Assembly (NCBI GenBank): GCA_049968235.1 | Contig: JBMFRC010000004.1 | Coordinates: 160,001-224,000, forward strand | DNA from: Candidatus Hydrogenedens sp. | GTDB lineage: Bacteria > Hydrogenedentota > Hydrogenedentia > Hydrogenedentales > Hydrogenedentaceae | Reading direction: 5' to 3' | Length of the DNA: 64,000 nt | Shown: positions 10,032 to 45,995 of the stretch, in pieces | Numbering within the stretch: position 1 is the stretch's first letter | How the letters are laid out: the number at the start of each line of letters is the position of its first letter | Program-made: the position numbers and the translations under genes | The notes under the pieces: generated by a model | Seen by the model: the letters and a program-made list of their open reading frames with translations, nothing else | What the model was told of the DNA's origin: nothing | Database searches by the model: none

Positions 10032-13000
10032 TCAGAAACAAAAACCATCCTCACTTTCATCTGGACAGGGATAATATCTCCCCATATTAAATATTTGTAT
10101 TGTGCGAATTAATTCGGAGAGAGAAATGACCCAATCCTGAGGATTGTAATCGCTGGAATGGGGTTGACAGTCGTGGTTATCACCATACCCGGGAAGATAG
10201 CCATCCTCAAGTTTAGAACTATTATCACAGTGATAAGCGCCCATGTTAAAGAACTGGACTATTCTTAATAGTTCTTCCAAATCAATCTTACCGTTTCTGT
10301 TTATATCTGAACTATGGAAATAGATGTATTCGCCTTCGAGAACCCCTTCTGTGTTCCCTTCTCCTTCTATAAGACCTTCTATATTTCCTTCTACAATTCC
10401 CTCGCCTTCACCAGTCCCCTCAAAAATACCTTCTACTATTCCTTCCTGTTGTGTGCATTCTTTATAATTTATAAAATCTGACAACTCAAAATTGGGGGGA
10501 ATTCCTTCACCAGCAGATAATCCTGCAATAAAACTTGAAGAAACGCAGTTAAGCCATGTGATAGAAATTGTTCCATCATAAAACATTTCTAACTGAATAT
10601 TGGCTTCTCCCGTACCATATCTTGGGACACTGGAAAAGGTAACAACAAAAGCATCTGTATCAAACTGATATGAAATAGAACCTCCTTTGCTTGGGTCTAA
10701 ATCATCAAACATAAGGGATATTCTTGGTAAGGAAAAATGAATTTCTAAGGATTCGGAATAGTCATCATTACCTTGTGTAAAGGTAACATAACCATTACTT
10801 CCCACATAACACCGGGAATATTTCACCCCATAAAGATAAACATAAGTTTCTAATGGGAAGTCAATCTGGGTAAAAGCATCATCTCCAATAGTAATAGGTG
10901 TTGAATTCTTTGTAGTTCTTGGGAAATCTTGCGCACTCTGTAAACATACATGATATTTATCTGAGGAATTATCGGGGGTGAATATAATCTGGTGATTAGA
11001 TAAAGGAACAGTATCTACAACATCTGAGGTATAGTAATAAGTAAAATAATCCGGTTGATGTAAAGTAGTAAAGGTATCACAATTTGTTGAATATTCGTTT
11101 CCTGCAATATCTGTTAATACAATCCTGTATGTATATTCAGTATCCGAACTCAAACCTGCAATTAAAAATTTATGATTTGTATTCATAGCAAGAGAATTTT
11201 CATATTGTTCAAAGGGAACCGAACATTGACTCCCATATTCAAAACGGGCAGAACAATTTTCATCAGTTTCTAATTGCACATCTACACTTTTTATATCTGG
11301 AATTATTGATAAAAGTAATAATTGAGGTGGGTAAATATCCGTTGTTGATTCGGCAGTGATTGTGTGAGGAGACCCTGATTCTGTCAATTCATCATAATAT
11401 TCTGCAGTAATTAACCCGTTATGAACAACAGAAAGAAGTCCATCATTATTTCCTGTGGCTAAATCTGTAAGTTGAATATTTCCTTCAAAAAACCCTGAAA
11501 TCTGCGTTTCAGTCAATACTATCTGTTCATTATCTCCGCTATCGGACCTAACCGGGATAAATATTTCTCCCTGTCCGGATAAGTTAGCATCTGCCAGGAC
11601 AAGAGTTGCTATTGAAGAGCCATTATAAATTGGTTTATCCCATTGTATAGTGCCATCTGAACCTGTAATTACAGGTAAATCTGTTTGATAGGGGACAATG
11701 GGGTTCCCCGTTATAGTCAATTTAACAATAGGAATAACTCCTGGAGGAGAAAATGCAACCAGATTACTCCCGAAATTAGAACGGACAGCACCTAATAATG
11801 TATTGGAATTAGAAAGTGATATAACTGCATTTGCCCATTCTATATAAACGGGAAATGGTAAACCATTTGGGTCAATCCCTGAACCATGAGTAATACTCGG
11901 ACTTTGTAGGATACCAGCCCATATTTCGGTAGAAGGGTCTCCTAAAAGGTTATACATTTCAAAATATCGTTGTGTGGTTGATTTGTTACCGTAATAATTG
12001 AAAAATTTTAATTTTCCATTAAGTATCATCCCTGCAGTCCATGTTTTCTTTAATGAAAAGAAACTTTCTATAACAGACTTCTCTAATATATCATCTTCCT
12101 CCCAATATGAAGTTACAGAACTCCCTACAAAACCAACCCCGCCTGCGGATACTCTCTGCCATGTTTCCCCAAAGCATTCAGGTTTGGCGTATTGCCCTGT
12201 ATCACATGCAAAACTAAGGACCCACGGATATACAGTATTGGTAAAGGAATTAATATCACTTTGTGATATAGGGGGACCATCTGCCCAACTCACATCAGAG
12301 CCATGCCCGGAATATACAATCCATCCTCGTCCAGAATTTACTGCAGTAATTACATCTGAAGTTGTTGCTCCATAAGTTACCGTATACAATTTTTGAGAAA
12401 TAAATTCTGCTGGTTCAAAGTAATTTGAGACCACATAATTGTGTGTTGCCTCTGTAATACTATAATTATCTGAACCCGTTAAAAAAGAGGCTTTTATATA
12501 CCATGGCTCCGGGAGTGTCCATTGTGCTTTTTCGTATTTGAGAATCTTGTTTAAGGCATTTTCTAATTGATTTGAGGTTGAGACGCTAATCCTACCTACC
12601 CATAAATCCGGGGTATAATATTCGTCGCCATCTACAATAGAGTAATATAAGTCTGTTATGGGATTATTGGGAGCAGAACCTGCTGGAGCCTGAATATAGT
12701 AAGGGTCGCCTACCAGGACTACAAATGTAGGCGGGACCTCCCAATTCGTATATGCCTGTTTGATATAATCTCGAATAGCAGTAGCATTTGTTCCTATATT
12801 TGCAACATTTTCTACGGTTGTAATAAAACCTCTTTGTGTTTTCCATTGAACCCATTCATTAAGTTTGCTATTCCCTACAAAAGAAGAAGCGACAATAACA
12901 AGCATTCCCACAGGAATATTATAACTTTTGCTCTCTGACTTTTCCATTAATGGAGAGGAATTTAAAATAAAGGGTTCCCATAAATCATCAATGTATTTTG

Positions 13001-13637
13001 AAAAATATTTTTTGTCTCGTGATGAAAAAGTTTTTGGAGTATCCCAACGAATAGTTAATAAGAGGTTTTTTGTTATGTAAATTTTTGAATTTAGGGGTTC
13101 ATAACTTATGGGATAATAGGTTATTTGATAGAGGTTTTTTCCACGAACATTTCCAAAAGGTTCTATTTCTGCAACTTTTTCTCCCTGTTTTTCATTTGAA
13201 TTGTAGACATTATTATTTTTTGTAAGTTTCGGTTTTTGAACTCCCTCTCTTTTTTCCCATGGAGGTTGAACAGGATAGAGAGGATACTGAATTTTTAGTT
13301 CTTCAGGGAGGGTTTGTTCCTCATAGGCCAGAGATACATTGGTTGCATTAGAAGGTAGTTCGATATATCTTCTCCATGCAGGCAATTCTGGATTGCCAAT
13401 AGAACCTGATGTTCCCATGCCCGGAATGATAATTTTTGTAAAAGTATTTTCTTCTATAGTTTCTTTTATGATTTCAGGGTTAGAAGTCAAGTTGATTTGA
13501 ATCTTAATTCCCCCTGTTTCAGGAAAAGTAGTTACGCGAACGACATCTCCTTTTGCTTCAAAAATTACCAATATTATTAGAGGTAATACTATCAAAAGAT
13601 TATTATTAAACCACAAAATACTTTTTTTCCTTTTCAT
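10032..13637 (-). CDS. secreted peptidase C25 (gingipain-like) multi-domain protein with C-terminal dockerin/EF-hand-like pair
   Basis: 1201 aa. N-terminal signal peptide/TM. C25 catalytic His and Cys motifs (WIVYSGHGS ... VLSFACDTGQY). Glu/Gly-rich tandem tract near the C-terminus. Two repeated calcium-loop-plus-helix segments (DINRNGKIDLEELLRIVQFFNMG and DYNPQDWVISLSELIRTIQIFNMG) followed by Cys-containing tails. Confidence 0.7.
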   Translation of the reverse strand: MKRKKSILWFNNNLLIVLPLIILVIFEAKGDVVRVTTFPETGGIKIQINLTSNPEIIKETIEENTFTKIIIPGMGTSGSIGNPELPAWRRYIELPSNATNVSLAYEEQTLPEELKIQYPLYPVQPPWEKREGVQKPKLTKNNNVYNSNEKQGEKVAEIEPFGNVRGKNLYQITYYPISYEPLNSKIYITKNLLLTIRWDTPKTFSSRDKKYFSKYIDDLWEPFILNSSPLMEKSESKSYNIPVGMLVIVASSFVGNSKLNEWVQWKTQRGFITTVENVANIGTNATAIRDYIKQAYTNWEVPPTFVVLVGDPYYIQAPAGSAPNNPITDLYYSIVDGDEYYTPDLWVGRISVSTSNQLENALNKILKYEKAQWTLPEPWYIKASFLTGSDNYSITEATHNYVVSNYFEPAEFISQKLYTVTYGATTSDVITAVNSGRGWIVYSGHGSDVSWADGPPISQSDINSFTNTVYPWVLSFACDTGQYAKPECFGETWQRVSAGGVGFVGSSVTSYWEEDDILEKSVIESFFSLKKTWTAGMILNGKLKFFNYYGNKSTTQRYFEMYNLLGDPSTEIWAGILQSPSITHGSGIDPNGLPFPVYIEWANAVISLSNSNTLLGAVRSNFGSNLVAFSPPGVIPIVKLTITGNPIVPYQTDLPVITGSDGTIQWDKPIYNGSSIATLVLADANLSGQGEIFIPVRSDSGDNEQIVLTETQISGFFEGNIQLTDLATGNNDGLLSVVHNGLITAEYYDELTESGSPHTITAESTTDIYPPQLLLLSIIPDIKSVDVQLETDENCSARFEYGSQCSVPFEQYENSLAMNTNHKFLIAGLSSDTEYTYRIVLTDIAGNEYSTNCDTFTTLHQPDYFTYYYTSDVVDTVPLSNHQIIFTPDNSSDKYHVCLQSAQDFPRTTKNSTPITIGDDAFTQIDFPLETYVYLYGVKYSRCYVGSNGYVTFTQGNDDYSESLEIHFSLPRISLMFDDLDPSKGGSISYQFDTDAFVVTFSSVPRYGTGEANIQLEMFYDGTISITWLNCVSSSFIAGLSAGEGIPPNFELSDFINYKECTQQEGIVEGIFEGTGEGEGIVEGNIEGLIEGEGNTEGVLEGEYIYFHSSDINRNGKIDLEELLRIVQFFNMGAYHCDNSSKLEDGYLPGYGDNHDCQPHSSDYNPQDWVISLSELIRTIQIFNMGRYYPCPDESEDGFCF
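10329..10448 (-). repeat. in-frame degenerate tandem repeat encoding a Gly-Glu-rich [V/I/T/N/L][V/E]EG[I/N/L/T/E] tract (inside the C25 peptidase CDS)
   Basis: The plus strand shows reiterated ccttc / ccctc units. The protein reads GEGIVEGIFEGTGEGEGIVEGNIEGLIEGEGNTEGVLEGE. Confidence 0.6.
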
Positions 13638-13714: not shown

Positions 13715-13750
13715 AAAAAGAATTACTGCGGTCTTTTTAGACCGCAGTAA
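13715..13750 (-). terminator. rho-independent terminator downstream of hup (minus strand)
   Basis: Perfect 9-bp stem actgcggtc (13725-13733) / gaccgcagt (13740-13748) with a 6-nt loop. On the minus strand it is followed by AAUUCUUUU. Located 30 nt past the hup stop. Confidence 0.5.
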
Positions 13751-13778: not shown

Positions 13779-14093
13779 TTACTTCTTTGCACCCAGAACT
13801 GCATCTTTTGCCGCTTTTGCAATCCGGAATTTCAAAACTTTCTTTGCGGGGACTTTCATTTTTTCTTTTGTCTGAGGATTGATTTGAATGCGGGCTTTGC
13901 GGTCAACGACCACCAGTTTGCCTAAGCCAGGAATGACAAAACTAGCCGGTGCCTGTGCATAAGCCAATTCCACTAAACTTTGAAGAACTTCATTAATGTT
14001 CTTCTTGGTTAGCCCTGTTGCCTCAGCGAGTGTGCTGATGATTTGTGCTTTGGTCATTGGCTTATCTTCTTTTTTTGCTTTTTTAAACGCCAT
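13779..14093 (-). CDS. hup: HU/IHF-family DNA-binding protein with Lys-rich N- and C-terminal tails
   Basis: 104 aa. HU core (ATGLTKKNINEVLQSLVELAY...FVIPGLGKLVVVDRKARIQINPQTKEKMKVPAKKVLKFR). Extra KK-rich termini. Confidence 0.8.
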   Translation of the reverse strand: MAFKKAKKEDKPMTKAQIISTLAEATGLTKKNINEVLQSLVELAYAQAPASFVIPGLGKLVVVDRKARIQINPQTKEKMKVPAKKVLKFRIAKAAKDAVLGAKK

Positions 14094-27187: not shown

Positions 27188-29722
27188 ATGAATGACGAAG
27201 AGAAAAATAAAGAACCTACTTCTTTAAATTCTCCTGATAACAATATTAATTCTTCATCATCGAATCAGGAGAAAGGGGTTGATGAGGTATTAGACCAATC
27301 CTTTATTGACTCTTTATTTCAAAATGCTCAAAAAGAGGCATCCCCACCTCCCATTGATACTCCATCCCCAGAAAGTTCACCTCAAACTTCTACCCCTGCA
27401 AAGGAGGAAATTCCTCCTAATTTAGCACAGAAAATAGTTGCTCCTCCTAAAAAACAAGATGCAGAAGTGGCATTACTCAGTCAGGATGAAATTGAGGAAT
27501 TGATTGAGTTAGCACGAAAAGAGGATAAAGAACGGCAAAAGAAGAAACAGGAAATATTAGAACAAATCACCAGTAAAGCAGTGGCTCAGCCCAGTCAAAA
27601 ACCTGTTTCTAAGAAGAAAATTAATTTAAAAAAATACCTCATCCCTATTGGTATCAGTCTGATATTAGGACTAACGAGTGGGATATGGACTTATATTTAT
27701 CTCATGAAGAATCGTCTAATTCCTGTGGAAGAGATAGCACCTACATATACGAAAGACCTTTCTACAGCAAAGGAATATGCGAAGATACTTATTGATGACA
27801 AACAATACTTAAACGCAATATATATATTAGAGAGGGCTTTGAAAAATAATCCACAATCTTCCCCTGATAAAGCAGATGCTCAATTCCTTTTAATTAAAGC
27901 GAAATACCTTTCCGGAAGAATAAATCCGGGAACAAAGGAATTTCAAAAGTTCATAGATGAAATAGAAACCGTAACAAAAGAAAATCCTGACCATCCTATG
28001 GCACCTTATGTATTCCTCTGGAAAGGGAAACTTCATGAGGCTGATAATTTTCCATATCCCGCTATAGAAGCGTATGAACGAATCGTTCAAACTTATCCTC
28101 AATTTGAAGGGCGAGATGAGGCTTTGTTTGCATTAAGTCGTCTTGAATTACAGATGAACAACACTGTGAAATCAGCCCAGTGGGGACAGCAATTGATAAA
28201 AGAATTTCCTGCTTCCCCTTATGCATTAGAGGCAAGGTTCAATCTTGCGGAATCATATCGTTTGACAGGATTATTGGAAGATGCGAGAACATTATATATT
28301 CGAATTGCAGATATGGCACCTGACACAGAAATAGGTGCTCGGGCAATTCTCCGTTTATCTGAAATGGCATATAAACAAGGGAGATATGAACAGGCATTAA
28401 TCCCATTAGAAACAAAATTAAATTATATTCGTCAGTTCCAATATAACGATGAAGCATATTTATTGTTAGCAAAAACATATAAGGCACTCGGAAGATTAGA
28501 GGAAGCCAGAACTGCTTTGCAAGATTTACTGTTTTTTTTCCCTGCTTCCGAAGTTCATCCTCATGCATGGGTAGAACTAAGTCAGATATATTACTCCTTA
28601 GGAGATAAAGAAAAAGCATTTCAAACCGCGAATGAGGCGAGTCTTTTATATCCAAACCATCCTGATGTATTGGCAAATAAAGCAGACTTTTTAGCTTTAC
28701 AGGGTAATTCATATGCTTCTGCTATTGCTTATCTTGAAGCAGAAAAAAATGGAGGAATCAAACCATCATATTTACTAAAAGCAGGGCAACTATTAATGAT
28801 AAATTCTCAACTTGAAGAGGCGATAAAAGCATTTGATGAATTGAAGAATCGCTATTATGGGACAAAAGAGGCATTAAAAGGAAGTATTGAAAGAGCAAAA
28901 TGTCTGTATAAATTAGGGAAGTTTTCTTCTGCTGTTTCTTCGCTTGAAGATTTGAAGAAATTAACTCCCGCTACAGAACCTGAATATAAAAGTATATTAC
29001 AGGAATTGACGACGATGTATTTTGAACTTGGTCTTAAAGAAACATCTGCCGAAATTGCAAAAGAGTGGTTCCAAAAAGCGGATACCCCGGAAGAAAAGAT
29101 TAATTCTGCCATGTTCCTGATTAATAATGATAATACAAATATAGTTTATTCCAATCTGTCATCTATTGATTTATCTACCGTTAACAAGGAAAAAACAGTA
29201 AATTTTCTTTATTTGTTATCACAAAAATTATTAACAACGCTTCCCTCTGAAGGATTGGCTCTTTTAGAACAGGTGTATTATCAATATCCTGAATTTAGGT
29301 CATCCGATATCCGCTATCATTTGTTAGAAACATATATCCATACGGAACGAACAACTTCAGCAAGGCGAATTATTCAAGATTGGGAAACAGAACTGGATAC
29401 ACAAAAAGAATCTATTCAGAATTTTATTGATGGAGAAATTTTATGGGGTAATTATATGTTTGAAAGACAAGAATGGGAACCTGCGTTGCAGGCATATTCT
29501 ACTGCTATTGAAATTTCCGAGAAAAATGGGGAACAATTGCAGGGAATACGATTTCATACGGATTGGGCAAAATATCAGAGAGCCAATATTCTTGCTCAAA
29601 CATCTCTGATGGAGGAATCTATAAAAATACTTGATGAGTTGATACGAGCCAAATCAGCATTGACATCTTTAGCCCAGGTAAAACTAGAACAAATTAAACT
29701 TGAAATGATTGCAAAAAAGTAA
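27188..29722 (+). CDS. large membrane-anchored TPR-repeat protein with Pro/Ser-rich N-terminal region
   Basis: 844 aa. Low-complexity N-terminus (SPPPIDTPSPESSPQTSTP). Single TM helix (YLIPIGISLILGLTSGIWTYIYL). At least 15 TPR-like repeats downstream. Confidence 0.6.
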   Translation: MNDEEKNKEPTSLNSPDNNINSSSSNQEKGVDEVLDQSFIDSLFQNAQKEASPPPIDTPSPESSPQTSTPAKEEIPPNLAQKIVAPPKKQDAEVALLSQDEIEELIELARKEDKERQKKKQEILEQITSKAVAQPSQKPVSKKKINLKKYLIPIGISLILGLTSGIWTYIYLMKNRLIPVEEIAPTYTKDLSTAKEYAKILIDDKQYLNAIYILERALKNNPQSSPDKADAQFLLIKAKYLSGRINPGTKEFQKFIDEIETVTKENPDHPMAPYVFLWKGKLHEADNFPYPAIEAYERIVQTYPQFEGRDEALFALSRLELQMNNTVKSAQWGQQLIKEFPASPYALEARFNLAESYRLTGLLEDARTLYIRIADMAPDTEIGARAILRLSEMAYKQGRYEQALIPLETKLNYIRQFQYNDEAYLLLAKTYKALGRLEEARTALQDLLFFFPASEVHPHAWVELSQIYYSLGDKEKAFQTANEASLLYPNHPDVLANKADFLALQGNSYASAIAYLEAEKNGGIKPSYLLKAGQLLMINSQLEEAIKAFDELKNRYYGTKEALKGSIERAKCLYKLGKFSSAVSSLEDLKKLTPATEPEYKSILQELTTMYFELGLKETSAEIAKEWFQKADTPEEKINSAMFLINNDNTNIVYSNLSSIDLSTVNKEKTVNFLYLLSQKLLTTLPSEGLALLEQVYYQYPEFRSSDIRYHLLETYIHTERTTSARRIIQDWETELDTQKESIQNFIDGEILWGNYMFERQEWEPALQAYSTAIEISEKNGEQLQGIRFHTDWAKYQRANILAQTSLMEESIKILDELIRAKSALTSLAQVKLEQIKLEMIAKK

Positions 29723-32811: not shown

Positions 32812-34995
32812 ATGAAAAAAAAAGAGACTATATTTTTTCTTTTAATTATTCTTTTTGCGATTGTAATACGGGTTATATATTTCTACTATATCTCACAACA
32901 ACCTGAATTTTCACACCCAATTATAGATCCTCAATTTAACGATTACTGGGCACATAAAATATTGTATCAGGGTAATTATCCATCTCCAACGGGAGATGAC
33001 CCTATGATAGAAAATACACCTTATGGAAGACCGCCAGGTTATCCTTTTCTTCTAGCTTTTATATACTTTCTTTTCGGAGATAATTATAATTCTCCGCGGT
33101 TAATACAATTTTTTGTGGGAATTGTAAATGTTTTTTTTATGTATTATTTTGTTTCGAGAATTTTTGTGAGTAAAAAAGCAGGATTAGTTTCTGCATTTTT
33201 AATGGCTATCCTTTGGGAACCTATTTATTTTGAAGGGGAAATAAACTATCCTGTATGGGTAATCTCACTTACAATAGTTCTTTTATTTACCTCATTACGA
33301 TATCTGCAAATAAAAACAACAAAATTTGTGATTCTTTCGGGCTTTTTACTAGGAATTATCGCTCTCTTTAGACCCAATGGACTTTTATTGTTACCTATGT
33401 ATGTTGGAATTGTGTTTCATATATTTGGGAAACGGAACTTCAAGAAGGCTCTTGCTCATTGCATTCTCTTTTCTGTATCCGTATTCTTAATAATATCTCC
33501 TGTTTTTATTAGAAACTATATAGTCAGTAATGATTTTTTTTTGATTTCGTGTTTTGGGGGGATAAATACATACATAGGTAACAATGCCCAGTCAACGGGG
33601 GACAGTCCTACGGTCCCGAATATAATTCATTTGTGTGGAGTTGATAATTGGGATTGTTTTAATTATCGATTATTAGTAAAAGGTCTTGGGATAAAACAAG
33701 AGGGTCGTTACTATTCATTCAAGGAGGCTTCTCAGTTCTTTTATAAAAAGGTTTATGAGTATTGGAAAAAAGAACCTATCTCTGCAATCAAATTAACGGC
33801 TCGTAAATTCTTTTTATTTTGGGGTCCTGCTATAGTTTCTGATGGAAAAGTTATTTATCATGACAGGGAAGCAACATTTCTTCGTTTATTGCCCGGTTTT
33901 CCTTTTCTGGTGGGATTATCTTTTTACTTCTTAATTTTGTTTATTCGACAGAGAAATCAATTACCTCCGGAACTTAAAACGCTTCTATTATTTATTTTTA
34001 CATGGAGTTTTGTTTATTCGTTATCTGTTATTCCTTTTTTTGTTTCAGAACGATACCGAATCCCTATTATTCCACCTTTATGCATTATAGGGGGAATAGG
34101 TACCGTTTTATTTCTTAGTAATACTGGTAATCAAAATAAGTTAAACAAGTTTAAACAAATTATTATTTGTTTACTATGCCTTACCCTTGTTTATAAGACA
34201 CCTGTAAAATATGAACCGGATACACCTCGATGGTTTTACCATAAAGCCATTGTTTCCTATAAATCTCAAAATGAAAAAGATGCGGTTTACTATGCTAATA
34301 AAGCCATTTCAAAGAACCCCAATTATTCAGAAGTTTATGCCTTTCTTGGTATAATCTCTCTTAATCATCATGAGTTTAAAGAGGCAGAAAATTATTGTTT
34401 AAAAGCATTAGAAAAAAATCCTGATTATGCTATGGCAAATAATAATTTAGGTTATATTATGGAATTAGAAAAGAAATTTGACCTTGCAGAAAAGTATTAC
34501 TATAAAGCATGTGAATTAAGTCCTGTATATACCCTGGCATGGATAAACCTCGGGAGAATGTATTTGTATTATCATAACCAGATTAACTTAGCAAAAGATT
34601 GTTTCGTAAAAGTAACTGAGTTAGACCCCAACTCATGGGTTGGATGGTTTCACTTAGGGAATGTATATATACAAATGGGAGAATACTCCTCAGCGGAGAA
34701 ATTTCTAACAAAATCTCTTTCATTAAATCCGGAAAATGCCCTTATTCATAATAATTTTGGTTTTTTATATATACAGAGAAAACAGTATGAAAAAGCGATA
34801 GAGTTTTTAAAAACAGCATTAGAAAAAGAGCCACAATTTACAGATGCTATGTTTAATCTCGGGAATGCGTTTAAAGAAATGAAGCAATATGAAGAGGCAG
34901 AATATTGGTATAAAAAAGTTTTAGAAATTGACCCACAATTTACAGATGCAGTAGATAAAATCAATGAAATAAATACAAATAAAAAAACTAACTAA
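32812..34995 (+). CDS. membrane GT-C glycosyltransferase (PMT/ArnT/TMTC-like) fused to C-terminal TPR repeats, subfamily A
   Basis: 727 aa. About 12 TM helices in the N-terminal 440 aa, with an acidic first-loop motif (PQFNDYWAHK) and RPPGYPFLLA. C-terminal about 270 aa of canonical TPRs (AFLGIISLNHHEFKEAENYCLKALEKNPDY...). The architecture parallels eukaryotic TMTC O-mannosyltransferases. Confidence 0.65.
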   Translation: MKKKETIFFLLIILFAIVIRVIYFYYISQQPEFSHPIIDPQFNDYWAHKILYQGNYPSPTGDDPMIENTPYGRPPGYPFLLAFIYFLFGDNYNSPRLIQFFVGIVNVFFMYYFVSRIFVSKKAGLVSAFLMAILWEPIYFEGEINYPVWVISLTIVLLFTSLRYLQIKTTKFVILSGFLLGIIALFRPNGLLLLPMYVGIVFHIFGKRNFKKALAHCILFSVSVFLIISPVFIRNYIVSNDFFLISCFGGINTYIGNNAQSTGDSPTVPNIIHLCGVDNWDCFNYRLLVKGLGIKQEGRYYSFKEASQFFYKKVYEYWKKEPISAIKLTARKFFLFWGPAIVSDGKVIYHDREATFLRLLPGFPFLVGLSFYFLILFIRQRNQLPPELKTLLLFIFTWSFVYSLSVIPFFVSERYRIPIIPPLCIIGGIGTVLFLSNTGNQNKLNKFKQIIICLLCLTLVYKTPVKYEPDTPRWFYHKAIVSYKSQNEKDAVYYANKAISKNPNYSEVYAFLGIISLNHHEFKEAENYCLKALEKNPDYAMANNNLGYIMELEKKFDLAEKYYYKACELSPVYTLAWINLGRMYLYYHNQINLAKDCFVKVTELDPNSWVGWFHLGNVYIQMGEYSSAEKFLTKSLSLNPENALIHNNFGFLYIQRKQYEKAIEFLKTALEKEPQFTDAMFNLGNAFKEMKQYEEAEYWYKKVLEIDPQFTDAVDKINEINTNKKTN

Positions 34996-35008
34996 ATATT
35001 AAAAGAAT

Positions 35009-37654
35009 ATGGATAACGAAAATAAAAAAAATAAAGATTGGGTAATTCTCTCGTGGATACTTTTGTTTGCGTTCTGTTTTCGGATTATTTATCTCTGGCA
35101 ATTAGTAGATGCTCCAGACTTTATTGCACTTCGGCAGGACTTGGATGTTCAGGATTATCAGGCAAGAGCGATACTATCCGGAGATTGGACTGTTCGGGAA
35201 GGGGTTTCTGACCCACATATTCCAACGACGCCGTATTATCGACCTCCGGGTTACCCATACTTCCTTGCAGTTGTATATTATTTTTTTGACGGTTCCTATC
35301 TGGCACCGCGATTCATTCATTTTTTTCTTGGACTCGTGCATATTGTCCTAATATATTTTTTAGCCAGAATTATATTTAATAGAATCGCAGGTTTATGTGC
35401 ATCTTTTCTTGTAGCCACTTATTGGGCTTTTATTTATTATGAAGGAGAAGTAAACGACCCTGCTTTATTTGTTTTTCTTGTCCCCTGTATATTATTTCTG
35501 ATTTATTATGCTGTTACTAAGGACTTTATCTTGTATTCTTTTTTCTCAGGCTTATGTATTGGTATATATGCCATCATGAGACCTAATATTCTATCATTTA
35601 TTCCTTTTTTATCATTATGGATTTTGTTCTTTTTTTATAAGCAGAAAAAACTATTTAAGAGTTTCTTTCATATATTTTTTTTGATAATTGCAATTTTTAC
35701 TGTGATAACTCCGGTTACAGTTCGGAATTATCTCGTATCGGGTGAATTTGTGCCTATCTCTACTTATTTTGGGGAGAATCTATTGATAGGAAATAGTGAG
35801 GATGCTGATGGAGTAACGCCGTGGTTGCCTTACCTTCAGGAATTAGAAGGAACGGGTAATTGGTCTGTATGGCATTATGATAATGTTGTAAAGGGTTTAG
35901 GGAAATTTTTGGGGAGAGAAGTTTCACATTCCGAAGCATCAAATATTTTTGCTAAAATGGCTATAAATTATATTATTCATCACCCATGGCAAACATTTTT
36001 ACTCACATGCAAAAAAGCTATTTTATTCTGGAGTCCACAAGAAATTACAGAGAACAAAGTTGTAGAGGGGGAAAGACAACATTATATACCTCTGAAATAT
36101 ATGCCTCGATTTCCTATTGTCCTGAGTACATTTTTATTAGGTTTGTTTTTTTTGATAAAAAATATATTTTTCAATAAGACATTTAAAGATACAAATATAA
36201 ATATTTATTTTCTAACACTGGTATTGTTGTTTATATTTACATATTTTGCTTCATTTCTTCCCTTTTTTGTAAATGCAAGGGCTCGTGTTCCGATATTGGG
36301 ATTGATGTTCATCATCGGCGGATACACATTTTCAGAAATTCGGTATTTATTTGTTAAGAGAAGAATAACTCCCGCTCTCATAAGTATTTTTGTTTTAGTA
36401 ATACTTTTTCTCATAACTCATATTGATATTATTCCCTATAAACCGGATATGTGCCGTTGGCATTATGACCGTGCTGACTCTTATCTCCGTGTAGGTCGTG
36501 TTGATGAAGCATTACAGGAAGTACATGCTCTTATGTCTCGTCCGGAACGTCCTATGACTTACATGCCATTCCGGCTGGGACATGCACTTGCAAAGTTAAA
36601 TTATTCCGAATTAGCTATAGATTTATTACGACTGGCACTTAGTCCTGACCCTTCAGAACAGCCTTCTATGTATAGAGAAGATATTTACTATCATATCGGT
36701 GCTTTATTTATGAAATTAAAAAGATATGATGAAGCCATCAAAGAATTTGAAAATGCTTTATCTTTAAATCCCAAAGACCCGAGAGTTCATAATGACCTAG
36801 GTGTCATTTACAAAGAACGCAATGACTTAGTAAAAGCCGAACAAGAATATAAATATGCTATTGATACAGAACCAGAATTTAATCTTGCTATAGCAAACTT
36901 GACAGAATTGTATATTCAACAGAAAAAATACGCTGAAGCGATTGAATTGCTGGGAAATAGCCTAAAATTACAGCCTCAAAATACAGAGTTACTTTATAAT
37001 TTAGGATTTGTTTATCATAATTCGGGACAACTTGAAAAAGCACTTTCCTATTACCAACAAGTATTATCTCATGATAGTAAGGAACCTAATACACTTAATA
37101 ATATGGCTATGATTTATTTAGAAAAAAATGACCTGGAAAAAGCCAAAAATACCCTGTTATGGTGTATATGCAAGAATTCCTATTTTACACTCGCATATGC
37201 GAATATGGGGGACATTTTATATTCAGAAAACCAACTACCAAAAGCCCTATATTATTATGATAAAGGGCTTGAAACGAATTATGAACATATAGGACTTTGC
37301 GCTGCGTTAGCCTTACTTTATACAGAAATGGGTAATGCCGAGAAAGGGATTGTGGAATTAATGGATGTTTTAAAAAAACATCCAGAGTCCACCAATTTAT
37401 GGTTTGCTCTGGGAAATATCTATAAAAATAGTAATCAAAATAATGAGGCTATTGGTGCTTATAATAAAGTATTAGATATAGATAGTTCTTATACATCGGC
37501 GTATAGAAATTTGATGGAAATTTATTTAAATAAAGGAGATGTTAATAAAACACTGGAAATCTTTGAAAAAGCGAAACAAAACATTAAAGATTCTGAACAA
37601 ATAGAATATTTATCCTCTCTTATCCTGGAAAAACAAGGAAATACCAATAAATGA
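35009..37654 (+). CDS. membrane GT-C glycosyltransferase (PMT/ArnT/TMTC-like) fused to C-terminal TPR repeats, subfamily A paralog
   Basis: 881 aa. Paralogous to the upstream gene (VQDYQARAIL...YYRPPGYPYFLAVVYYFF). Multiple TM helices. C-terminal about 400 aa of TPRs. Stop overlaps the downstream GT2 start (ATGA at 37651-37654). Confidence 0.65.
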   Translation: MDNENKKNKDWVILSWILLFAFCFRIIYLWQLVDAPDFIALRQDLDVQDYQARAILSGDWTVREGVSDPHIPTTPYYRPPGYPYFLAVVYYFFDGSYLAPRFIHFFLGLVHIVLIYFLARIIFNRIAGLCASFLVATYWAFIYYEGEVNDPALFVFLVPCILFLIYYAVTKDFILYSFFSGLCIGIYAIMRPNILSFIPFLSLWILFFFYKQKKLFKSFFHIFFLIIAIFTVITPVTVRNYLVSGEFVPISTYFGENLLIGNSEDADGVTPWLPYLQELEGTGNWSVWHYDNVVKGLGKFLGREVSHSEASNIFAKMAINYIIHHPWQTFLLTCKKAILFWSPQEITENKVVEGERQHYIPLKYMPRFPIVLSTFLLGLFFLIKNIFFNKTFKDTNINIYFLTLVLLFIFTYFASFLPFFVNARARVPILGLMFIIGGYTFSEIRYLFVKRRITPALISIFVLVILFLITHIDIIPYKPDMCRWHYDRADSYLRVGRVDEALQEVHALMSRPERPMTYMPFRLGHALAKLNYSELAIDLLRLALSPDPSEQPSMYREDIYYHIGALFMKLKRYDEAIKEFENALSLNPKDPRVHNDLGVIYKERNDLVKAEQEYKYAIDTEPEFNLAIANLTELYIQQKKYAEAIELLGNSLKLQPQNTELLYNLGFVYHNSGQLEKALSYYQQVLSHDSKEPNTLNNMAMIYLEKNDLEKAKNTLLWCICKNSYFTLAYANMGDILYSENQLPKALYYYDKGLETNYEHIGLCAALALLYTEMGNAEKGIVELMDVLKKHPESTNLWFALGNIYKNSNQNNEAIGAYNKVLDIDSSYTSAYRNLMEIYLNKGDVNKTLEIFEKAKQNIKDSEQIEYLSSLILEKQGNTNK

Positions 37655-38802
37655 CACATTGTGATGAAATAGAACTAAGCGTTGTATTACCTTGTTTGAA
37701 TGAAGAACGGACTATTGGACAATGTGTACAGAAAACACAAAAGGTTTTCGATAAATATCATATTAAAGGTGAAATTATTGTCGCAGATAATAATTCTACG
37801 GATAGTTCCTCATCAATTGCGGAACAAGCAGGTGCGAAGGTAGTCAAGGTAATTACTCCTGGATACGGGAATACTCTTCGAAACGGTATAAAAGAAGCAA
37901 AAGGGAAATATATAATCTTTTTTGATTCTGATTTATCCTATGACCCTGAGGATATTCCTCAAATATTAGAGAAATTACGAGAAGGTTATCCTATTGTTCT
38001 GGGGTCTAGGAAAAAAGGAACGATTGATAGAGGCTCTATGCCATGGTTACATAGATATATAGGCACTCCGATAATGACTTTACTTGCGAATATTTTTTTT
38101 AAGGCACATATAACGGATATTAATTCGGGTATGCGTGGTATGTCCCGAAAAGTATTTGATGAATTAGATTTACATTCGGAAGGCATGGAATTTGCTTCTG
38201 AAATGATAGCAAAAGCACATTGGACCCAAACTAAAATAGCGGAAGTTCCTATTCATTTTCACTGTGACCAGAGGGGAAGGCGTCCACATTTACATTCTGT
38301 TCGTGATGGATGGAGACATTTACAACTTATGTTTCATTATTGTTCTATTAATTGGTTTCTTATACCGGGTTTTATATTGTTATTTTTTTCATACCTTGTA
38401 TTTTTTATTCTGCCTCAGTATATGGATATTTATACATCCTTTTTTATTTCTTTACTAACCAACATTATTGCAACCCAAATTTTATTGATTGGAGTCATTG
38501 CTCAGGGTAGAGTTCGTGGTTCAAAGTTTAGATACATTCCATCAAAATATCTCCTTTTTTTATCCCGAATAATCAAAGTCGAAAAGGGTATGTTTTTGGG
38601 TTTAGGGATATGTTTTTTAGGCATGTTTTTAATGCTTTATACTCTTCGTTCAGGAATAAACATGCCAGATATAACTATAAAAATATTTTTTGGGGGTATT
38701 CTATGTTTTGTTCAGGGGGTTCAGGTTTTATTTAGTTCCATTTTAATCGGGCTGTTTGGAATTCGTGTTTCAGAAGAGGAAGAATTTTTTAGAAAATCTT
38801 AG
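37651..38802 (+). CDS. GT2 polyprenyl-phosphate glycosyltransferase (DPM1/ArnC/GtrB-like) with C-terminal TM helices
   Basis: 383 aa. GT-A N-terminus (LSVVLPCLNEERTI, DSD...YDPED). Four C-terminal hydrophobic helices. This is the architecture of lipid-phosphate-sugar donor synthases that feed GT-C enzymes. Confidence 0.8.
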   Translation: MTHCDEIELSVVLPCLNEERTIGQCVQKTQKVFDKYHIKGEIIVADNNSTDSSSSIAEQAGAKVVKVITPGYGNTLRNGIKEAKGKYIIFFDSDLSYDPEDIPQILEKLREGYPIVLGSRKKGTIDRGSMPWLHRYIGTPIMTLLANIFFKAHITDINSGMRGMSRKVFDELDLHSEGMEFASEMIAKAHWTQTKIAEVPIHFHCDQRGRRPHLHSVRDGWRHLQLMFHYCSINWFLIPGFILLFFSYLVFFILPQYMDIYTSFFISLLTNIIATQILLIGVIAQGRVRGSKFRYIPSKYLLFLSRIIKVEKGMFLGLGICFLGMFLMLYTLRSGINMPDITIKIFFGGILCFVQGVQVLFSSILIGLFGIRVSEEEEFFRKS

Positions 38803-38817
38803 AGTTATAATAAAGAT

Positions 38818-40281
38818 ATGAAACATGTTGTATTTGTAATGCCACCATATCCTTATTCTCGTTCCATTGGACAGGAGGAAGGAAAAAGGCAAATTGGGTT
38901 AATGCCGCCTTTAGGTGTTGGGTATCTTACTGCATACTTAGAGCGGACAGGGAAATACCAATGTTATTTTGTCGATGCAGTTGCGGAGAGGTTATCTATT
39001 GAGGAAACTGTTTCTCGTATTCTATCATTCGAACCGGATGTAATTGGAATTTCATCTTTTACGACTTTTCTTCTCAATACTTCATATCAACTTGCACGAA
39101 GATTAAAAGAAGAATGTCCTTCGATTCCATTGTTAATGGGAGGTCCTCACACTACTTCTTTCGGGGAACAGGTGTTGAAAGACTGTCCGTATATTGATTA
39201 TGTCATTCCGGGAGATGCTGAAGTTCCTCTTTTAGAGTTATTAGAAAAGATTTTTTGTGGAGATATACCGGATAAGGTAAAAGGCATCATTTATAAAAAT
39301 GAAAAAGATGAAATCGTAGATACGGGCTGTTCTATCCCTGTAGATGATATTGATACTCTACCTTTCCCCTCACGACACATTTATAACCATGAGTTATATG
39401 AGCCTTTACCGAGTTTAAGTCCCAAACGCCCTGCCATGTCGATGATTACAGCACGGGGTTGTCCATGGGCACGATGTAAATTTTGTTATCAGGGAGGGAA
39501 ATATGCATCTCCATTTCGTCGTCGGTCTCCGGAAAATGTTGTGGCAGAATTAAAATACCTTATTGAAAAATATAATGTAAAAAATATTGTATTCTGGGAT
39601 GATAATTTTTGTATCTTTCCTGAATGGATACATAAATTTTGCTCCCTTATAAAACAGGGGAAAATAAAATTAGATTGGTCTGTTTTATCGCGTGTAAATA
39701 CAGTAACACCGGAAATGTTAAATGAAATGGCAGAAGTAGGTTGTTACAGTATTCAATTTGGTATTGAATCCGGAAATGAGGAAATACTTAAACTTATTCG
39801 AAAAGGTCACACATTAGAACAATGTCGAAATGCAGTCCGCTGGGCAAAATCCGCTGGTATGGAGACAAGGGCTTTCTTTGTTTTGGGTTTTCCTACGGAG
39901 ACCCCAGCAATGAGTGAAGAGACTATTCGTTTTGCATGTGAATTAAATATCGATTATGTTGTTTTCTTTTCGTATTATGTAGCACCCGGAACACTTCTTG
40001 CCGAGATTGCTATGAGAGAAGGGCAGTGTTTTGAATTTATAGGACAACATTTACCTTCTTACCTTCCTAATACCTATCCTGATTTGGAGACATTAACAAA
40101 GAAAGTACAATCCGCCTATCGAAGATATTACCTCAGACCTCGATATTTCGCTCGAACTATTACAAGAACGATTCGTCGTCCCCATCATTTGAAAAATCAA
40201 ATAAAGGCATTTAATTATTGGCTTGGATTGAGTTTAAAAAAATGGACTCACAACAAAAATTCAACAGTTAACATAACCTAA
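38818..40281 (+). CDS. B12-binding domain radical SAM protein (class B rSAM)
   Basis: 487 aa. N-terminal cobalamin-binding Rossmann region (DVIGISSFTTF...LLMGGPHTT). Radical SAM Cys cluster (RGCPWARCKFCYQG), then the TIM-barrel core. Confidence 0.8.
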   Translation: MKHVVFVMPPYPYSRSIGQEEGKRQIGLMPPLGVGYLTAYLERTGKYQCYFVDAVAERLSIEETVSRILSFEPDVIGISSFTTFLLNTSYQLARRLKEECPSIPLLMGGPHTTSFGEQVLKDCPYIDYVIPGDAEVPLLELLEKIFCGDIPDKVKGIIYKNEKDEIVDTGCSIPVDDIDTLPFPSRHIYNHELYEPLPSLSPKRPAMSMITARGCPWARCKFCYQGGKYASPFRRRSPENVVAELKYLIEKYNVKNIVFWDDNFCIFPEWIHKFCSLIKQGKIKLDWSVLSRVNTVTPEMLNEMAEVGCYSIQFGIESGNEEILKLIRKGHTLEQCRNAVRWAKSAGMETRAFFVLGFPTETPAMSEETIRFACELNIDYVVFFSYYVAPGTLLAEIAMREGQCFEFIGQHLPSYLPNTYPDLETLTKKVQSAYRRYYLRPRYFARTITRTIRRPHHLKNQIKAFNYWLGLSLKKWTHNKNSTVNIT

Positions 40282-45329: not shown

Positions 45330-45995
45330 AAGATGATTAAAGAACCGAAAGAACCTATAAAACAATCGTAAAACTGTTGTATCTACGCCCGAGGATGATA
45401 ATGAAAGTAGAAGAATTGAGAAAACTTGATGATAAATCATCACGATCCCATAAACTACGAACCGTGTTCAATCTGAAGAATGACCAGAAAGCAGAGAATG
45501 TTAAAGCATTTTTAGATGAGTTGATGGCAGTCTATCCTTATCCAATACGAATGATACCGACCAATAATGGTAAGGAATCTACTAACTGCTTCTGCCGGGG
45601 TAGAAAACAACCCTCCGGTAAATATATCTTTGGGCACCTCTGTCAGAGACTCGTTATAGGATACTGACTGACTTTCCCTATACACCGGAAATAAATGGTT
45701 AGTAGAAGGTTTTAATGGTATAATAACAGAAATATTAAAACAACATTATTTCACGGATTACAAAAAGTCGATGGATAAATCAAACCAGTATACCTATTGT
45801 TATAATTATGTTCATAAACAACAATTATTAAACAACAAAAGCCCAGCAGAGGCATTAGGTAAATGGTATAATAAAAAATCTTTCCTTTTTCGCCCTCTTT
45901 TATTCTATCAAATTACATCTTTTCAAAACCTAGCAATTAATTACTATGAGAAAGAAAATCAGACGCAAAGTTATCCCTCAAACCTATTAAACTGA
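45330..45995 (+). pseudogene. degraded IS481/IS3-type transposase (rve integrase core) remnant
   Basis: Two short ORF fragments. LDDKSSRS...VKAFLDELMAVYPYPIRMIPTNNGKESTNCF matches the DDE core pattern (IDDHSR...AFL...VLTDNGxEF). ...YTYCYNYVHKQQLLNNKSPAEAL matches the conserved HxYNxxRPHxxL...TP C-terminus. There are multiple frame disruptions and no intact ORF. Confidence 0.55.

What the first reader, a model, noticed from the sequence alone, without database searches (positions are those of the whole stretch)
10032..13637. 1201-aa secreted C25 (gingipain-like) peptidase ending in a Gly/Glu repeat and a dockerin/EF-hand-like Ca2+-loop pair with Cys-rich tails
The catalytic His/Cys dyad context (YSGHGS / SFACDTGQY) is clear. 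The C-terminus is unusual. A degenerate EG-repeat linker is followed by two segments, DINRNGKIDLEELLRIVQFFNMG and DYNPQDWVISLSELIRTIQIFNMG. The first is a textbook EF-hand/dockerin calcium loop (D-x-N-x-N-G-x-I-D-x-x-E). Each is followed by cysteine-containing tails (AYHCD; RYYPCPDESEDGFCF).

This suggests Ca2+-dependent docking of a large protease to a surface scaffold. Such a protease could also be a target or processing partner of the glycosylation island.
Basis: seen in the sequence. Interest (0 to 1): 0.6.

Follow-up and report, generated by a model that had tools for sequence, protein, structure and literature searches.

The report
Gingipain-like protease with dockerin-like anchor tail
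This gene encodes a secreted gingipain-type cysteine protease from an uncultured Hydrogenedens bacterium, and its odd tail is one copy of a large, unannotated, calcium-loop and disulfide-containing dockerin-like domain that this phylum puts on the C-terminus of many different secreted proteins, most likely to tether them to the cell surface.

Summary
ORF 10032-13637 (minus strand) encodes a 1201-aa protein with a signal peptide, a C25 propeptide, a C25 catalytic domain, about 490 aa of unassigned domains, an E/G linker and a 98-aa tail. The Asp/His/Cys residues align with the Kgp active site.

The tail is not peculiar to this protease. A profile of it finds 2,860 protein clusters (50% identity level). 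In 137 of 149 inspected, it ends within 10 residues of the C-terminus. Host proteins range from 97 to 2,613 aa, and the 66 scanned carry typical surface domains. Named source records are almost all Hydrogenedentota. All source names are "hypothetical protein". Pfam and NCBIfam have no model for it.

Best reading: a dockerin-like, probably Ca2+-dependent surface-anchoring or assembly tag. No partner was identified. No link to the glycosylation island was found.

The parts
10032..13637 (-). Complete ORF of 1201 aa plus stop codon: secreted gingipain-like (C25) pre-pro-peptidase with a C-terminal dockerin-like module.
   Evidence: ORF listing. Ortholog in Ca. Hydrogenedens terephthalaticus is 81% identical over the full length and syntenic. 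Further orthologs in L003-L005.
13554..13637 (-). Predicted Sec signal peptide, about aa 1-28 (MKRKK, then hydrophobic LLIVLPLIILVIF, then EA|KG).
   Evidence: Read from the sequence; inference, as no signal-peptide predictor was available.
12996..13541 (-). C25 propeptide (inhibitory pro-domain), aa 33-214.
   Evidence: Pfam Propeptide_C25 at 2.2e-11, 43.7 bits against a cut-off of 22. Kgp pro-domain structure 5mun at E 3.4e-12.
11925..12905 (-). Peptidase_C25 catalytic domain, aa 245-571. Asp390 is at 12468-12470, His445 at 12303-12305, Cys478 at 12204-12206, and the putative S1 Asp515 at 12093-12095.
   Evidence: Pfam at 6.2e-58. Kgp 4rbm/4tkx at 2e-35, with His445 and Cys478 aligned to Kgp His444 and Cys477, Asp390 to Asp388 and Asp515 to Asp516 (numbering derived from the alignment). 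All four residues are conserved in 5 orthologs.
10458..11924 (-). Middle region, aa 572-1060: several unassigned, probably beta-rich domains, with faint Ig-like and FN3-like signals.
   Evidence: Only sub-threshold Pfam hits (Peptidase_C25_C 0.09, Big_13, fn3_2, Pur_ac_phosph_N). No PDB sequence relative. Conserved at 63-84% identity in orthologs. Shared without the C25 domain by a 1243-aa module protein in L067.
10329..10457 (-). E/G-rich linker, aa 1061-1103 (degenerate xEG repeats).
   Evidence: 56% E+G. Its length is 43, 67, 1, 15 and 15 aa in the five orthologs. A 12-bp tandem repeat lies at 10362-10400. 51 of 147 family members have a linker of at least 50% E+G before the module.
10035..10328 (-). 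C-terminal module, aa 1104-1201: dockerin-like tandem duplication with 4 conserved Cys.
   Evidence: Profile search: 2,860 clusters, terminal in 137 of 149. AF2 pLDDT 93.6. Dockerins are the top fold matches. No Pfam or NCBIfam family matches.
10188..10316 (-). Repeat 1, aa 1108-1150: HSSD, Ca-type loop DINRNGKIDLEE (aa 1111-1122, nt 10272-10307), helix LLRIVQFFN, then a hairpin with Cys1137 and LEDGY.
   Evidence: Family consensus for the loop: D1 100%, N/D3 94%, D/N5 97%, I8 89%, E12 100%. Sub-threshold EF-hand hits.
10035..10169 (-). Repeat 2, aa 1157-1201: Cys1157, PHSSD, 13-residue loop DYNPQDWVISLSE (aa 1163-1175, nt 10113-10151), helix LIRTIQIFN, then a hairpin with Cys1191, SEDGF and Cys1200.
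   Evidence: HSSDYNPQDW is nearly invariant in the family. Cys3 and Cys4 are lost together in 30 of 258 instances, implying disulfides 1137-1157 and 1191-1200.

Best explanation
The gene encodes a Sec-exported zymogen of a gingipain-type (clan CD, family C25) cysteine endopeptidase from a Candidatus Hydrogenedens species. Its order is signal peptide, inhibitory pro-domain, catalytic domain, about 490 aa of unassigned domains, a length-variable acidic E/G spacer and a 98-aa C-terminal module.

The catalytic domain has an Asp390/His445/Cys478 triad. Asp515 lies at the position of the Lys-binding Asp516 of Kgp, so cleavage after basic residues, possibly Lys, is inferred.

The module is a tandem duplication of about 45 aa. 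Each half is an EF-type calcium loop, an amphipathic helix (LSELLRxIQFFN) and a short hairpin stapled by a disulfide. Together the halves form a dockerin-like two-F-hand fold.

It is one copy of a phylum-wide (Hydrogenedentota) C-terminal module attached to many unrelated secreted proteins. I infer that it is a Ca2+-stabilised interaction tag. After export and oxidative folding it would tether its passenger, here the protease on its flexible spacer, to a common receptor on the cell envelope or in a multiprotein assembly. Functionally it would take the place that the T9SS C-terminal domain has in Bacteroidota gingipains.

Shown: domain identities, catalytic residue alignment, the duplication, family size, terminal position, passenger diversity and the predicted fold. 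Inferred: Ca2+ binding, the disulfides, the anchoring function and the identity of the partner.
For: - C25 identity: Pfam, PDB and catalytic alignment. The catalytic residues are conserved in 5 orthologs while the linker varies from 1 to 67 aa.
- Family size and position: the module profile finds 2,860 clusters at 50% identity, 941 of them at E<1e-30. It ends within 10 aa of the C-terminus in 137 of 149.
- Export: 63 of 98 full-length hosts have signal-peptide-like N-termini.
- Passengers are typical surface domains: InlB B-repeats, PASTA, Ig-like, LRR, PMP repeats, beta-helix, Kelch, GH10.
- Taxonomy and copy number: 525 confirmed genomic loci, with named records all Hydrogenedentota and up to 9 loci from one MAG among the top 80. 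94 module ORFs occur in 830 kb.
- Internal duplication: E 5e-32.
- Loop 1 has canonical EF-loop ligand positions that are 94-100% conserved.
- Disulfides: the Cys pattern is CCCC in 225, CCxx in 30 and other in 3, so two disulfides and an extracytoplasmic location are implied.
- Interaction-module behaviour: 26 of 149 proteins have 2-4 copies, some copies are internal, and module-only secreted proteins exist (P0013, P0014, P0159).
- Positional equivalence: in L081, four tandem cohesin paralogs end either in a C-terminal TM anchor (three) or in GEGEG plus the module (one), so the module sits where a membrane anchor sits.
- Conserved polar residues: helix positions R, Q and N are 95-100% conserved across paralogs, which suggests a common binding partner.
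Against: - No partner was identified. No cohesin was found in the window or in 80 related loci, and no gene family recurs beside module genes (at most 9 of 80 loci).
- This protein has no Dockerin_1 hit, and its EF-hand hits are below the curated cut-offs.
- Loop 2 is 13 residues, so its Ca2+ binding is uncertain.
- In L081 canonical dockerin proteins sit next to the cohesins, so those cohesins may bind them and not the module.
- Model coordinates could not be inspected, so the Ca-site and disulfide geometry are unverified.
- Strict C-terminal placement is also what a secretion signal would show.
- No experiment exists. The phylum had no cultured isolate as of 2024 (PMC11406978).
Confidence: 0.6

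Rival explanations
1. The module is a C-terminal secretion or sorting signal, analogous to the T9SS CTD of Bacteroidota gingipains. A dedicated outer-membrane translocon would recognise it, and a sortase-like peptidase would then remove or exchange it. It would not be a stable docking domain.
For: It is at the extreme C-terminus in 137 of 149 proteins. Hosts have N-terminal signal peptides. There are many cargo proteins per genome. It occupies the same position as the T9SS CTD in gingipains. C25-family enzymes include the T9SS sortase PorU, to which this protein has a weak match (NCBIfam 64 bits, PDB 6za2 at 1e-3).
Against: 26 of 149 proteins carry 2-4 copies. Some copies are internal or N-proximal (P0072 at aa 54-156 of 949; P0084 upstream of GH10). 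Module-only proteins exist. The fold is helical and dockerin-like, not the beta-sandwich of T9SS CTDs. There is no Por_Secre_tail match. The PorU score is far below its cut-off (64 against 420 bits). No conserved transporter gene lies beside module genes.
Confidence: 0.2
2. The module anchors cargo by binding a non-protein envelope component, such as LPS, capsule, an S-layer glycan or peptidoglycan. It would then act like SLH or CBM-type anchors, and there would be no cohesin-type protein partner.
For: No cohesin was detected in the window or in 830 kb of related DNA. The invariant His, Glu-Asp-Gly and aromatic residues (HSxD, EDGY/F, W66) could form a metal-dependent sugar site. The module is equivalent in position to a TM anchor in the L081 paralogs.
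Against: The nearest structural relatives are protein-binding dockerins. The nearly identical conserved helices in both halves resemble the dual-binding dockerin surface. Cohesin + module proteins (P0214, P0234, P0051) exist in some lineages. Nothing was tested directly.
Confidence: 0.15
3. The C-terminal EF-hand-like pair is a Ca2+ sensor that regulates this protease intramolecularly, or the protease works on or with the downstream glycosylation island.
For: Loop 1 is a textbook EF loop. Several glycosyltransferase genes lie in the same 64-kb window.
Against: The same module sits on thousands of unrelated, mostly non-enzymatic passengers. A dispensable linker of 1-67 aa separates it from the enzyme. 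The island starts about 19 kb away, beyond housekeeping genes (ppk, HU, ComB-type phosphatase, XerC/D-type recombinase, PlsX). The protease's conserved synteny is with ppk and other metabolic genes. A terminator-like hairpin isolates the gene from the upstream HU gene.
Confidence: 0.03

Closest known systems
Gingipains Kgp and RgpB of Porphyromonas gingivalis (MEROPS family C25, clan CD)
   Same: Both have a signal peptide, an inhibitory pro-domain, a C25 catalytic domain, accessory domains and a C-terminal targeting domain. The catalytic His and Cys and the Asp388 and Asp516 equivalents align. E-values are 2e-35 to Kgp and 1e-29 to RgpB. The pro-domain matches 5mun.
   Different: Identity is low, so the match is at family level only. 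The Ig-like domain after the catalytic domain is barely detectable. The accessory region has no haemagglutinin/adhesin (Cleaved_Adhesin) domains. The T9SS CTD is absent and replaced by the E/G linker plus the dockerin-like module. The host phylum differs (Hydrogenedentota).
Dockerin modules (Pfam PF00404), including non-cellulosomal dockerins. Background: Peer et al. 2009, listed as ref. 38 of PMC3821032.
   Same: Both are usually C-terminal, preceded by a flexible linker and carried by many different secreted proteins of one organism. Both are a tandem duplication of a Ca-binding loop plus helix (F-hand) with near two-fold internal symmetry. Dockerins are the best structural matches. Tandem 'double' copies occur (compare 8x39). 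Cohesin-bearing proteins can carry it.
   Different: The repeats are about 45 aa, against about 22 in dockerins as I recall them. Each has an added Cys hairpin with a conserved (T/S)EDG(Y/F) motif, and two disulfides are inferred. Loop position 12 is Glu, as in EF-hands, where dockerins have Asp (from my own knowledge). Loop 2 has 13 residues. There is an invariant His three residues before each loop. This protein has no Dockerin_1 hit, and only 13 of 81 members have weak hits. No cohesin partner has been demonstrated.
EF-hand Ca2+-binding motifs (PF00036, PF13405, PF13202, PF13499)
   Same: Loop 1 is D-x-N-x-N-G-x-I-D-x-x-E followed by a helix. The profile finds calmodulin loops at E about 1e-3. 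54 of 81 members hit EF-hand_6 at E<=0.1.
   Different: All hits for this protein are below the curated cut-offs. The AF2 model has no entering helix before the loop. EF-hand proteins are not among the top fold matches. The protein is extracellular and disulfide-bonded.
T9SS C-terminal domain (Por_Secre_tail, TIGR04183) of Bacteroidota cargo
   Same: Functional analogy only. Both are lineage-wide C-terminal domains of about 80-100 aa on many Sec-exported surface proteins, including C25 peptidases.
   Different: There is no sequence match. The fold is helical, not a beta-sandwich. Multi-copy and internal occurrences exist.

Membership tests
Peptidase family C25 (gingipain family) | Match to the Peptidase_C25 profile above the curated threshold | tested here: met
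   PF01364 at 197.2 bits against a cut-off of 23, E 6.2e-58, covering profile positions 1-373 of 374.
Peptidase family C25 (gingipain family) | Catalytic His and Cys at the positions of Kgp His444 and Cys477 | tested here: met
   In the HMMER alignment to 4rbm/4tkx, His445 aligns with chain residue 216 (His444) and Cys478 with residue 249 (Cys477). Asp390 aligns with Asp388 and Asp515 with Asp516. All are conserved in 5 orthologs. His444, Cys477 and Asp516 are named as Kgp pocket residues in PMC13266019. The roles of Asp388 and Asp516 rest on my own knowledge.
Peptidase family C25 (gingipain family) | N-terminal C25 pro-domain | tested here: met
   PF08126 at 43.7 bits against 22. 5mun at E 3.4e-12.
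Peptidase family C25 (gingipain family) | Ig-like domain after the catalytic domain (Peptidase_C25_C) | tested here: inconclusive
   PF03785 at 13.1 bits against a cut-off of 25, E 0.09. The RgpB alignment extends to aa 630.
Peptidase family C25 (gingipain family) | Cysteine endopeptidase activity | not testable with these tools
   Needs recombinant enzyme.
T9SS sortase PorU / T9SS cargo | PorU equivalog score, or a T9SS C-terminal sorting domain | tested here: not met
   NF033707 at 64 bits against a cut-off of 420, over the C25 core only. No Por_Secre_tail hit in Pfam or NCBIfam.
Dockerin type I (PF00404) | Match to the Dockerin_1 profile | tested here: not met
   No hit for this protein at E<=10. 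At family level 13 of 81 members hit at E<=0.1, best 4.4e-6.
Dockerin type I (PF00404) | Tandem duplication of a Ca-binding loop plus helix (two F-hands) | tested here: met
   hhalign of half 1 against half 2 gives E 5e-32. AF2 shows loop-helix twice, H17-29 and H70-82.
Dockerin type I (PF00404) | Size and repeat length (about 60-70 aa, about 22-residue repeats, no disulfides) | tested here: not met
   The module is 95-98 aa with 45-aa repeats and 4 conserved Cys. The typical dockerin size is from my own knowledge; the target lengths of 55-73 aa agree with it.
Dockerin type I (PF00404) | Three-dimensional similarity to solved dockerins | tested here: inconclusive
Dockerin type I (PF00404) | Ca2+-dependent binding to a cohesin | not testable with these tools
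   No cohesin in the window or in 80 loci. Cohesin + module proteins exist elsewhere.
EF-hand | Canonical 12-residue loop with ligands at positions 1, 3, 5 and 12 and a hydrophobic residue at 8 | tested here: met
   Loop 1 is DINRNGKIDLEE. Family conservation is 89-100% at these positions. Loop 2 is 13 residues and is not canonical.
EF-hand | Profile score above the curated threshold | tested here: not met
   EF-hand_1, 5, 6 and 7 score 16-22 bits against cut-offs of 25-30.
EF-hand | Helix-loop-helix with an entering helix, and a paired four-helix arrangement | tested here: not met
   The AF2 DSSP string shows coil before loop 1 and only two helices in total. EF-hand proteins are absent from the top fold matches.

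The most novel reading that the evidence does not exclude
The 98-aa tail defines a previously undescribed, Hydrogenedentota-wide protein domain: a disulfide-stapled, extended dockerin-like double F-hand. It would be the phylum's general device for displaying or assembling secreted proteins on the cell surface. Many cargo proteins per genome would carry it, including a gingipain-like protease, adhesin-like repeat proteins, glycoside hydrolases and cohesins. It would be an independent solution to the problem that T9SS CTDs, LPXTG, PEP-CTERM or classical cohesin-dockerin pairs solve elsewhere, and its receptor is still unknown.
Probability: 0.45. Interest if true: 0.7.

Novelty: new variant of a known kind. 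Interest (0 to 1): 0.55.

Why it matters
Hydrogenedentota had no cultured isolate as of 2024 (PMC11406978), and nothing was found in the searched library about how its cells organise their surface. A single conserved C-terminal module sits on thousands of secreted proteins. That gives a sequence handle for predicting the phylum's surface proteome and for fishing out its receptor. It also offers a compact, disulfide-stabilised and probably Ca2+-switchable interaction domain that could interest protein engineers, much as cohesin-dockerin pairs have. For the protease itself, the result places a gingipain-type enzyme, probably specific for basic residues, on the surface of an anaerobic-digester bacterium. 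That fits an extracellular protein-scavenging lifestyle. Many database entries for the module are short "partial hypothetical proteins", and two carry a source name (YbcJ/S4-like) unrelated to any domain found here. A curated family model would correct this.

Tried and rejected
- The exact-sequence look-up of the full protein found nothing on record.
- The first AF2 run, with 9 sequences, gave pLDDT 58 and was discarded in favour of the 81-sequence run.
- The afdb50 fold library was unavailable.
- Model coordinates are not exposed, so Ca-site and disulfide geometry could not be measured.
- The word-indexed homology search with the P0214 cohesin domain returned a single hit and said nothing about how widespread cohesins are.
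- A 6-sequence cohesin HMM and phmmer found no cohesin in the window or in 80 loci. This is a weak negative, because the profile comes from high-GC lineages.
- All-against-all clustering of flanking ORFs found no recurrent neighbour family beyond orthologous synteny.
- The PDB sequence search of the middle region (aa 576-1060) gave nothing.
- I suspected a NIDO-like motif (YVGSNGYVTF), but Pfam gave no hit.
- Literature searches for the motif strings and for Hydrogenedentes/Hydrogenedentota with dockerin, cohesin, secretion or peptidase found nothing relevant.
- Peer et al. 2009 (PMC3035643) is not held.
- Rejected ideas: that the short (about 100 aa) hits are genuine mini-proteins, that this protein is a PorU-type sortase, and that it has an operon link with the glycosylation island.
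- On the short hits: most are partial or fragmented gene calls at contig ends or across E/G repeats.


Full report
**Observation.** The window has an ATG-to-stop ORF at 10032..13637 on the minus strand that encodes 1201 aa. Window GC is 35%. A 100% identical partial protein is recorded from a "Candidatus Hydrogenedens sp." MAG. A syntenic ortholog, 81% identical over the full length, lies in Ca. Hydrogenedens terephthalaticus contig AWNW01000010.1. The window therefore comes from a Hydrogenedens-like member of the phylum Hydrogenedentota.

**The protease part.**
- Pfam gives Propeptide_C25 (aa 33-214, 2e-11) and Peptidase_C25 (aa 245-571, 6e-58, whole profile covered).
- PDB sequences give Lys-gingipain Kgp (4rbm/4tkx, 2e-35), RgpB (1cvr, 1e-29) and the Kgp pro-domain (5mun, 3e-12).
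- In the printed alignment, His445 (YSGHGS) and Cys478 (SFACDTG) fall on Kgp chain residues 216 and 249. With the chain starting at residue 229, these are His444 and Cys477.
- Asp390 falls on Asp388, and Asp515 on Asp516. From my own knowledge, Asp516 is the S1 Lys-binding residue. PMC13266019 lists His444, Cys477 and Asp516 as pocket residues.
- All four residues are conserved in five orthologs.
- The N-terminus (MKRKK, a 13-residue hydrophobic stretch, then EA|KG) looks like a Sec signal peptide. This is an inference.
- There is no T9SS C-terminal domain, and the PorU models score far below cut-off (64 against 420 bits).
- The 490-aa region after the catalytic domain has only faint Ig/FN3-like signals and no solved relative.

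**The tail is a family, not an oddity.**
- The last 98 aa found nine relatives with the same two-fold pattern.
- An exhaustive profile search of 1.84 billion representatives found 2,860 proteins at E<=1e-3. Of these, 2,142 are at <=1e-10 and 941 at <=1e-30.
- Among the best 149, the module ends within 10 residues of the C-terminus in 137. Host lengths run from 97 to 2,613 aa. 26 proteins carry 2-4 copies. 51 of 147 have a linker of at least 50% E+G just upstream. 63 of 98 full-length hosts have signal-peptide-like N-termini.
- Passenger domains in 66 full-length members are typical surface domains: InlB B-repeat (12), PASTA (7), Bact_surface_Ig-like (6), LRR (5), Chlam_PMP (5), beta-helix (4), CHRD, Kelch and P_proprotein. 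GH10 and cohesin also occur.
Every record that names a phylum says Hydrogenedentota or Hydrogenedens, and 19 assemblies supply the top 80 loci, up to 9 each.
- In the 830 kb fetched, 94 ORFs carry the module.
- All source names are "hypothetical protein". Pfam-A and NCBIfam 20.0 have no model for it. No paper in the library contains its signature strings.

**Anatomy of the module.**
- The family consensus is HSADQNGDxxIxLSELLRVIQFFNSGGYHC-x(4-6)-TEDGYxPGxGDxxC-PHxSDYNPQDWxIxLSELLRLIQFFNxGGYHxCPxxTEDGFCPG.
- The two halves are homologous (hhalign probability 99.9%, E 5e-32).
- Loop 1 has EF-hand ligand spacing: D1 100%, N/D3 94%, D/N5 97%, I8 89%, E12 100%. Loop 2 is one residue longer.
- The four Cys behave as two pairs. 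Of 258 instances, 225 have all four, 30 have lost exactly Cys3 and Cys4, and only 3 break the rule. This points to disulfides 1137-1157 and 1191-1200 in this protein, and so to an oxidising, extracytoplasmic location.
- With 81 sequences AF2 gives pLDDT 93.6 and pTM 0.83. Each half is a loop, a 13-residue helix and a short hairpin.

**Comparison with known folds and families.**
- EF-hand proteins are not among the top fold hits.
- At sequence level this protein has no Dockerin_1 hit at E<=10, and only sub-threshold EF-hand hits on loop 1.
- Over 81 members at E<=0.1, EF-hand_6 hits 54 and Dockerin_1 hits 13. Some of the EF-hand hits come from extra EF-hands upstream of the module.
- The module profile finds calmodulin loops at about 1e-3, and no dockerin among the 60 listed matches.
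- The module is therefore best described as a dockerin-like double F-hand that has been extended by Cys hairpins. It fails membership in Dockerin_1 and in EF-hand by profile score.

**How it probably works.**
- The linker is dispensable and plastic, at 43, 67, 1, 15 and 15 aa in five orthologs that otherwise keep the catalytic residues and the module. It is therefore a spacer.
- The module behaves like an interaction domain and not like a mere export signal. Copies can be tandem, internal or N-proximal. Secreted proteins made only of 2-3 modules exist (P0013, P0014, P0159).
- Polar helix residues (R, Q, N) and the His and EDG(Y/F) motifs are 95-100% conserved across paralogs, as expected if all copies recognise one partner.
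- The most telling context is L081 (61% GC, a distant lineage). It has four tandem cohesin paralogs. Three end in a linker plus a C-terminal TM helix and basic tail. The fourth (P0214) ends in GEGEG plus the module. Two small secreted proteins with canonical dockerin loops lie beside them.
- The module thus occupies the slot of a membrane anchor. This fits direct anchoring, or docking onto the anchored cohesins as an adaptor would.
- I therefore favour a Ca2+-stabilised surface-anchoring or assembly tag (confidence about 0.6), with the protease as one of many cargo proteins.
- What is missing is the partner. No cohesin was found in the window or in the 80 loci, and no family recurs next to module genes.

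**Rivals.**
- A cleaved secretion signal of the T9SS-CTD type fits the terminal position. It fits poorly with the multi-copy and internal occurrences and with the helical fold (confidence 0.2).
- A glycan or envelope anchor without a protein partner cannot be excluded (0.15).
- Ca2+ regulation of this protease, or a functional link to the glycosylation island, is disfavoured (0.03). The island comprises PMT_2/TPR proteins at 32812-37654 and 48221-50470, a GT2, B12-radical-SAM enzymes and a carbamoyltransferase. It starts about 19 kb away, beyond ppk, HU, a ComB-type phosphatase, a XerC/D-type recombinase and PlsX. A terminator-like hairpin follows the upstream HU gene.

**Novelty and score.**
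- The protease is a new member of a known family.
- The module is a new variant of a known kind (dockerin/F-hand modules). It appears to be undescribed and unannotated despite about 2,900 clusters.
- A specialist would find the scale and the disulfide-stapled architecture interesting, but not revolutionary. The function remains inferred, and the phylum had no cultured isolate as of 2024 (PMC11406978).
- Interest is 0.55.

Noticed in passing
window 32812-58000: There is a glycosylation-type island. It has three PMT_2 (ArnT/protein-mannosyltransferase-like) proteins, two of them with TPR repeats, at 32812-34995, 35009-37654 and 48221-50470. It also has a GT2 (37651-38802), two B12-binding radical-SAM enzymes (38818-40281, 50774-52312), a carbamoyltransferase (56066-57811) and further TPR proteins (27188-29722, 60991-63900).
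   Followed up: partly
window 40298-41767 (+), 42859-45072 (-), 45937-48261 (-): Three large ORFs (489, 737 and 774 aa) inside the island have no Pfam match at E<=1e-5. They were not examined further.
   Followed up: no
L005, L007, L014, L016 (CAZJTZ01) and other CAZ*/CAY* assemblies: MAG records titled 'uncultured Nitrospirales bacterium' carry many copies of the module. In L005 there is also a close ortholog of the Hydrogenedens C25 protease, with the ppk-sized and 259-aa neighbours conserved. The record taxonomy labels are probably wrong.
   Followed up: partly
L001 4894-6339 (GCA_017880035.1, 935-kb contig), and the many short proteins: Module genes are often called as fragments of about 100 aa or as 'partial'. 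There are three consecutive same-strand ORFs in L001. This suggests frameshifts or assembly breaks in the E/G repeats and at the repeated module. Two such fragments (P0188, P0216) are named 'ribosome-associated protein YbcJ (S4-like)' by JGI, possibly via weak S4_2 hits like those seen in 7 of 81 members at E about 0.02.
   Followed up: partly
L081 1574-6662: A compact cohesin-dockerin cluster lies in a 61% GC contig. It has four tandem cohesin paralogs, three with C-terminal TM anchors and one with the module, plus two small secreted proteins with canonical dockerin-type loops. It could be a minimal non-cellulosomal cohesin-dockerin system.
   Followed up: partly
L067 3-3731: A 1243-aa module-bearing ORF shares the protease's unassigned middle region (phmmer 1e-38) but lacks the C25 domain. 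The middle region is therefore a mobile accessory domain set in its own right.
   Followed up: no
window 13723-13750 (-): A strong terminator-like hairpin (12-bp stem, 6 GC pairs, T-run) lies just downstream of the HU-family gene (13779-14093). It separates that gene from the protease gene. No comparable terminator was found in the 101-bp gap between the protease and ppk.
   Followed up: no
P0163: One module protein is labelled 'Kiritimatiellae bacterium' in NCBI. This is either a binning or label error, or a rare occurrence outside Hydrogenedentota.
   Followed up: no
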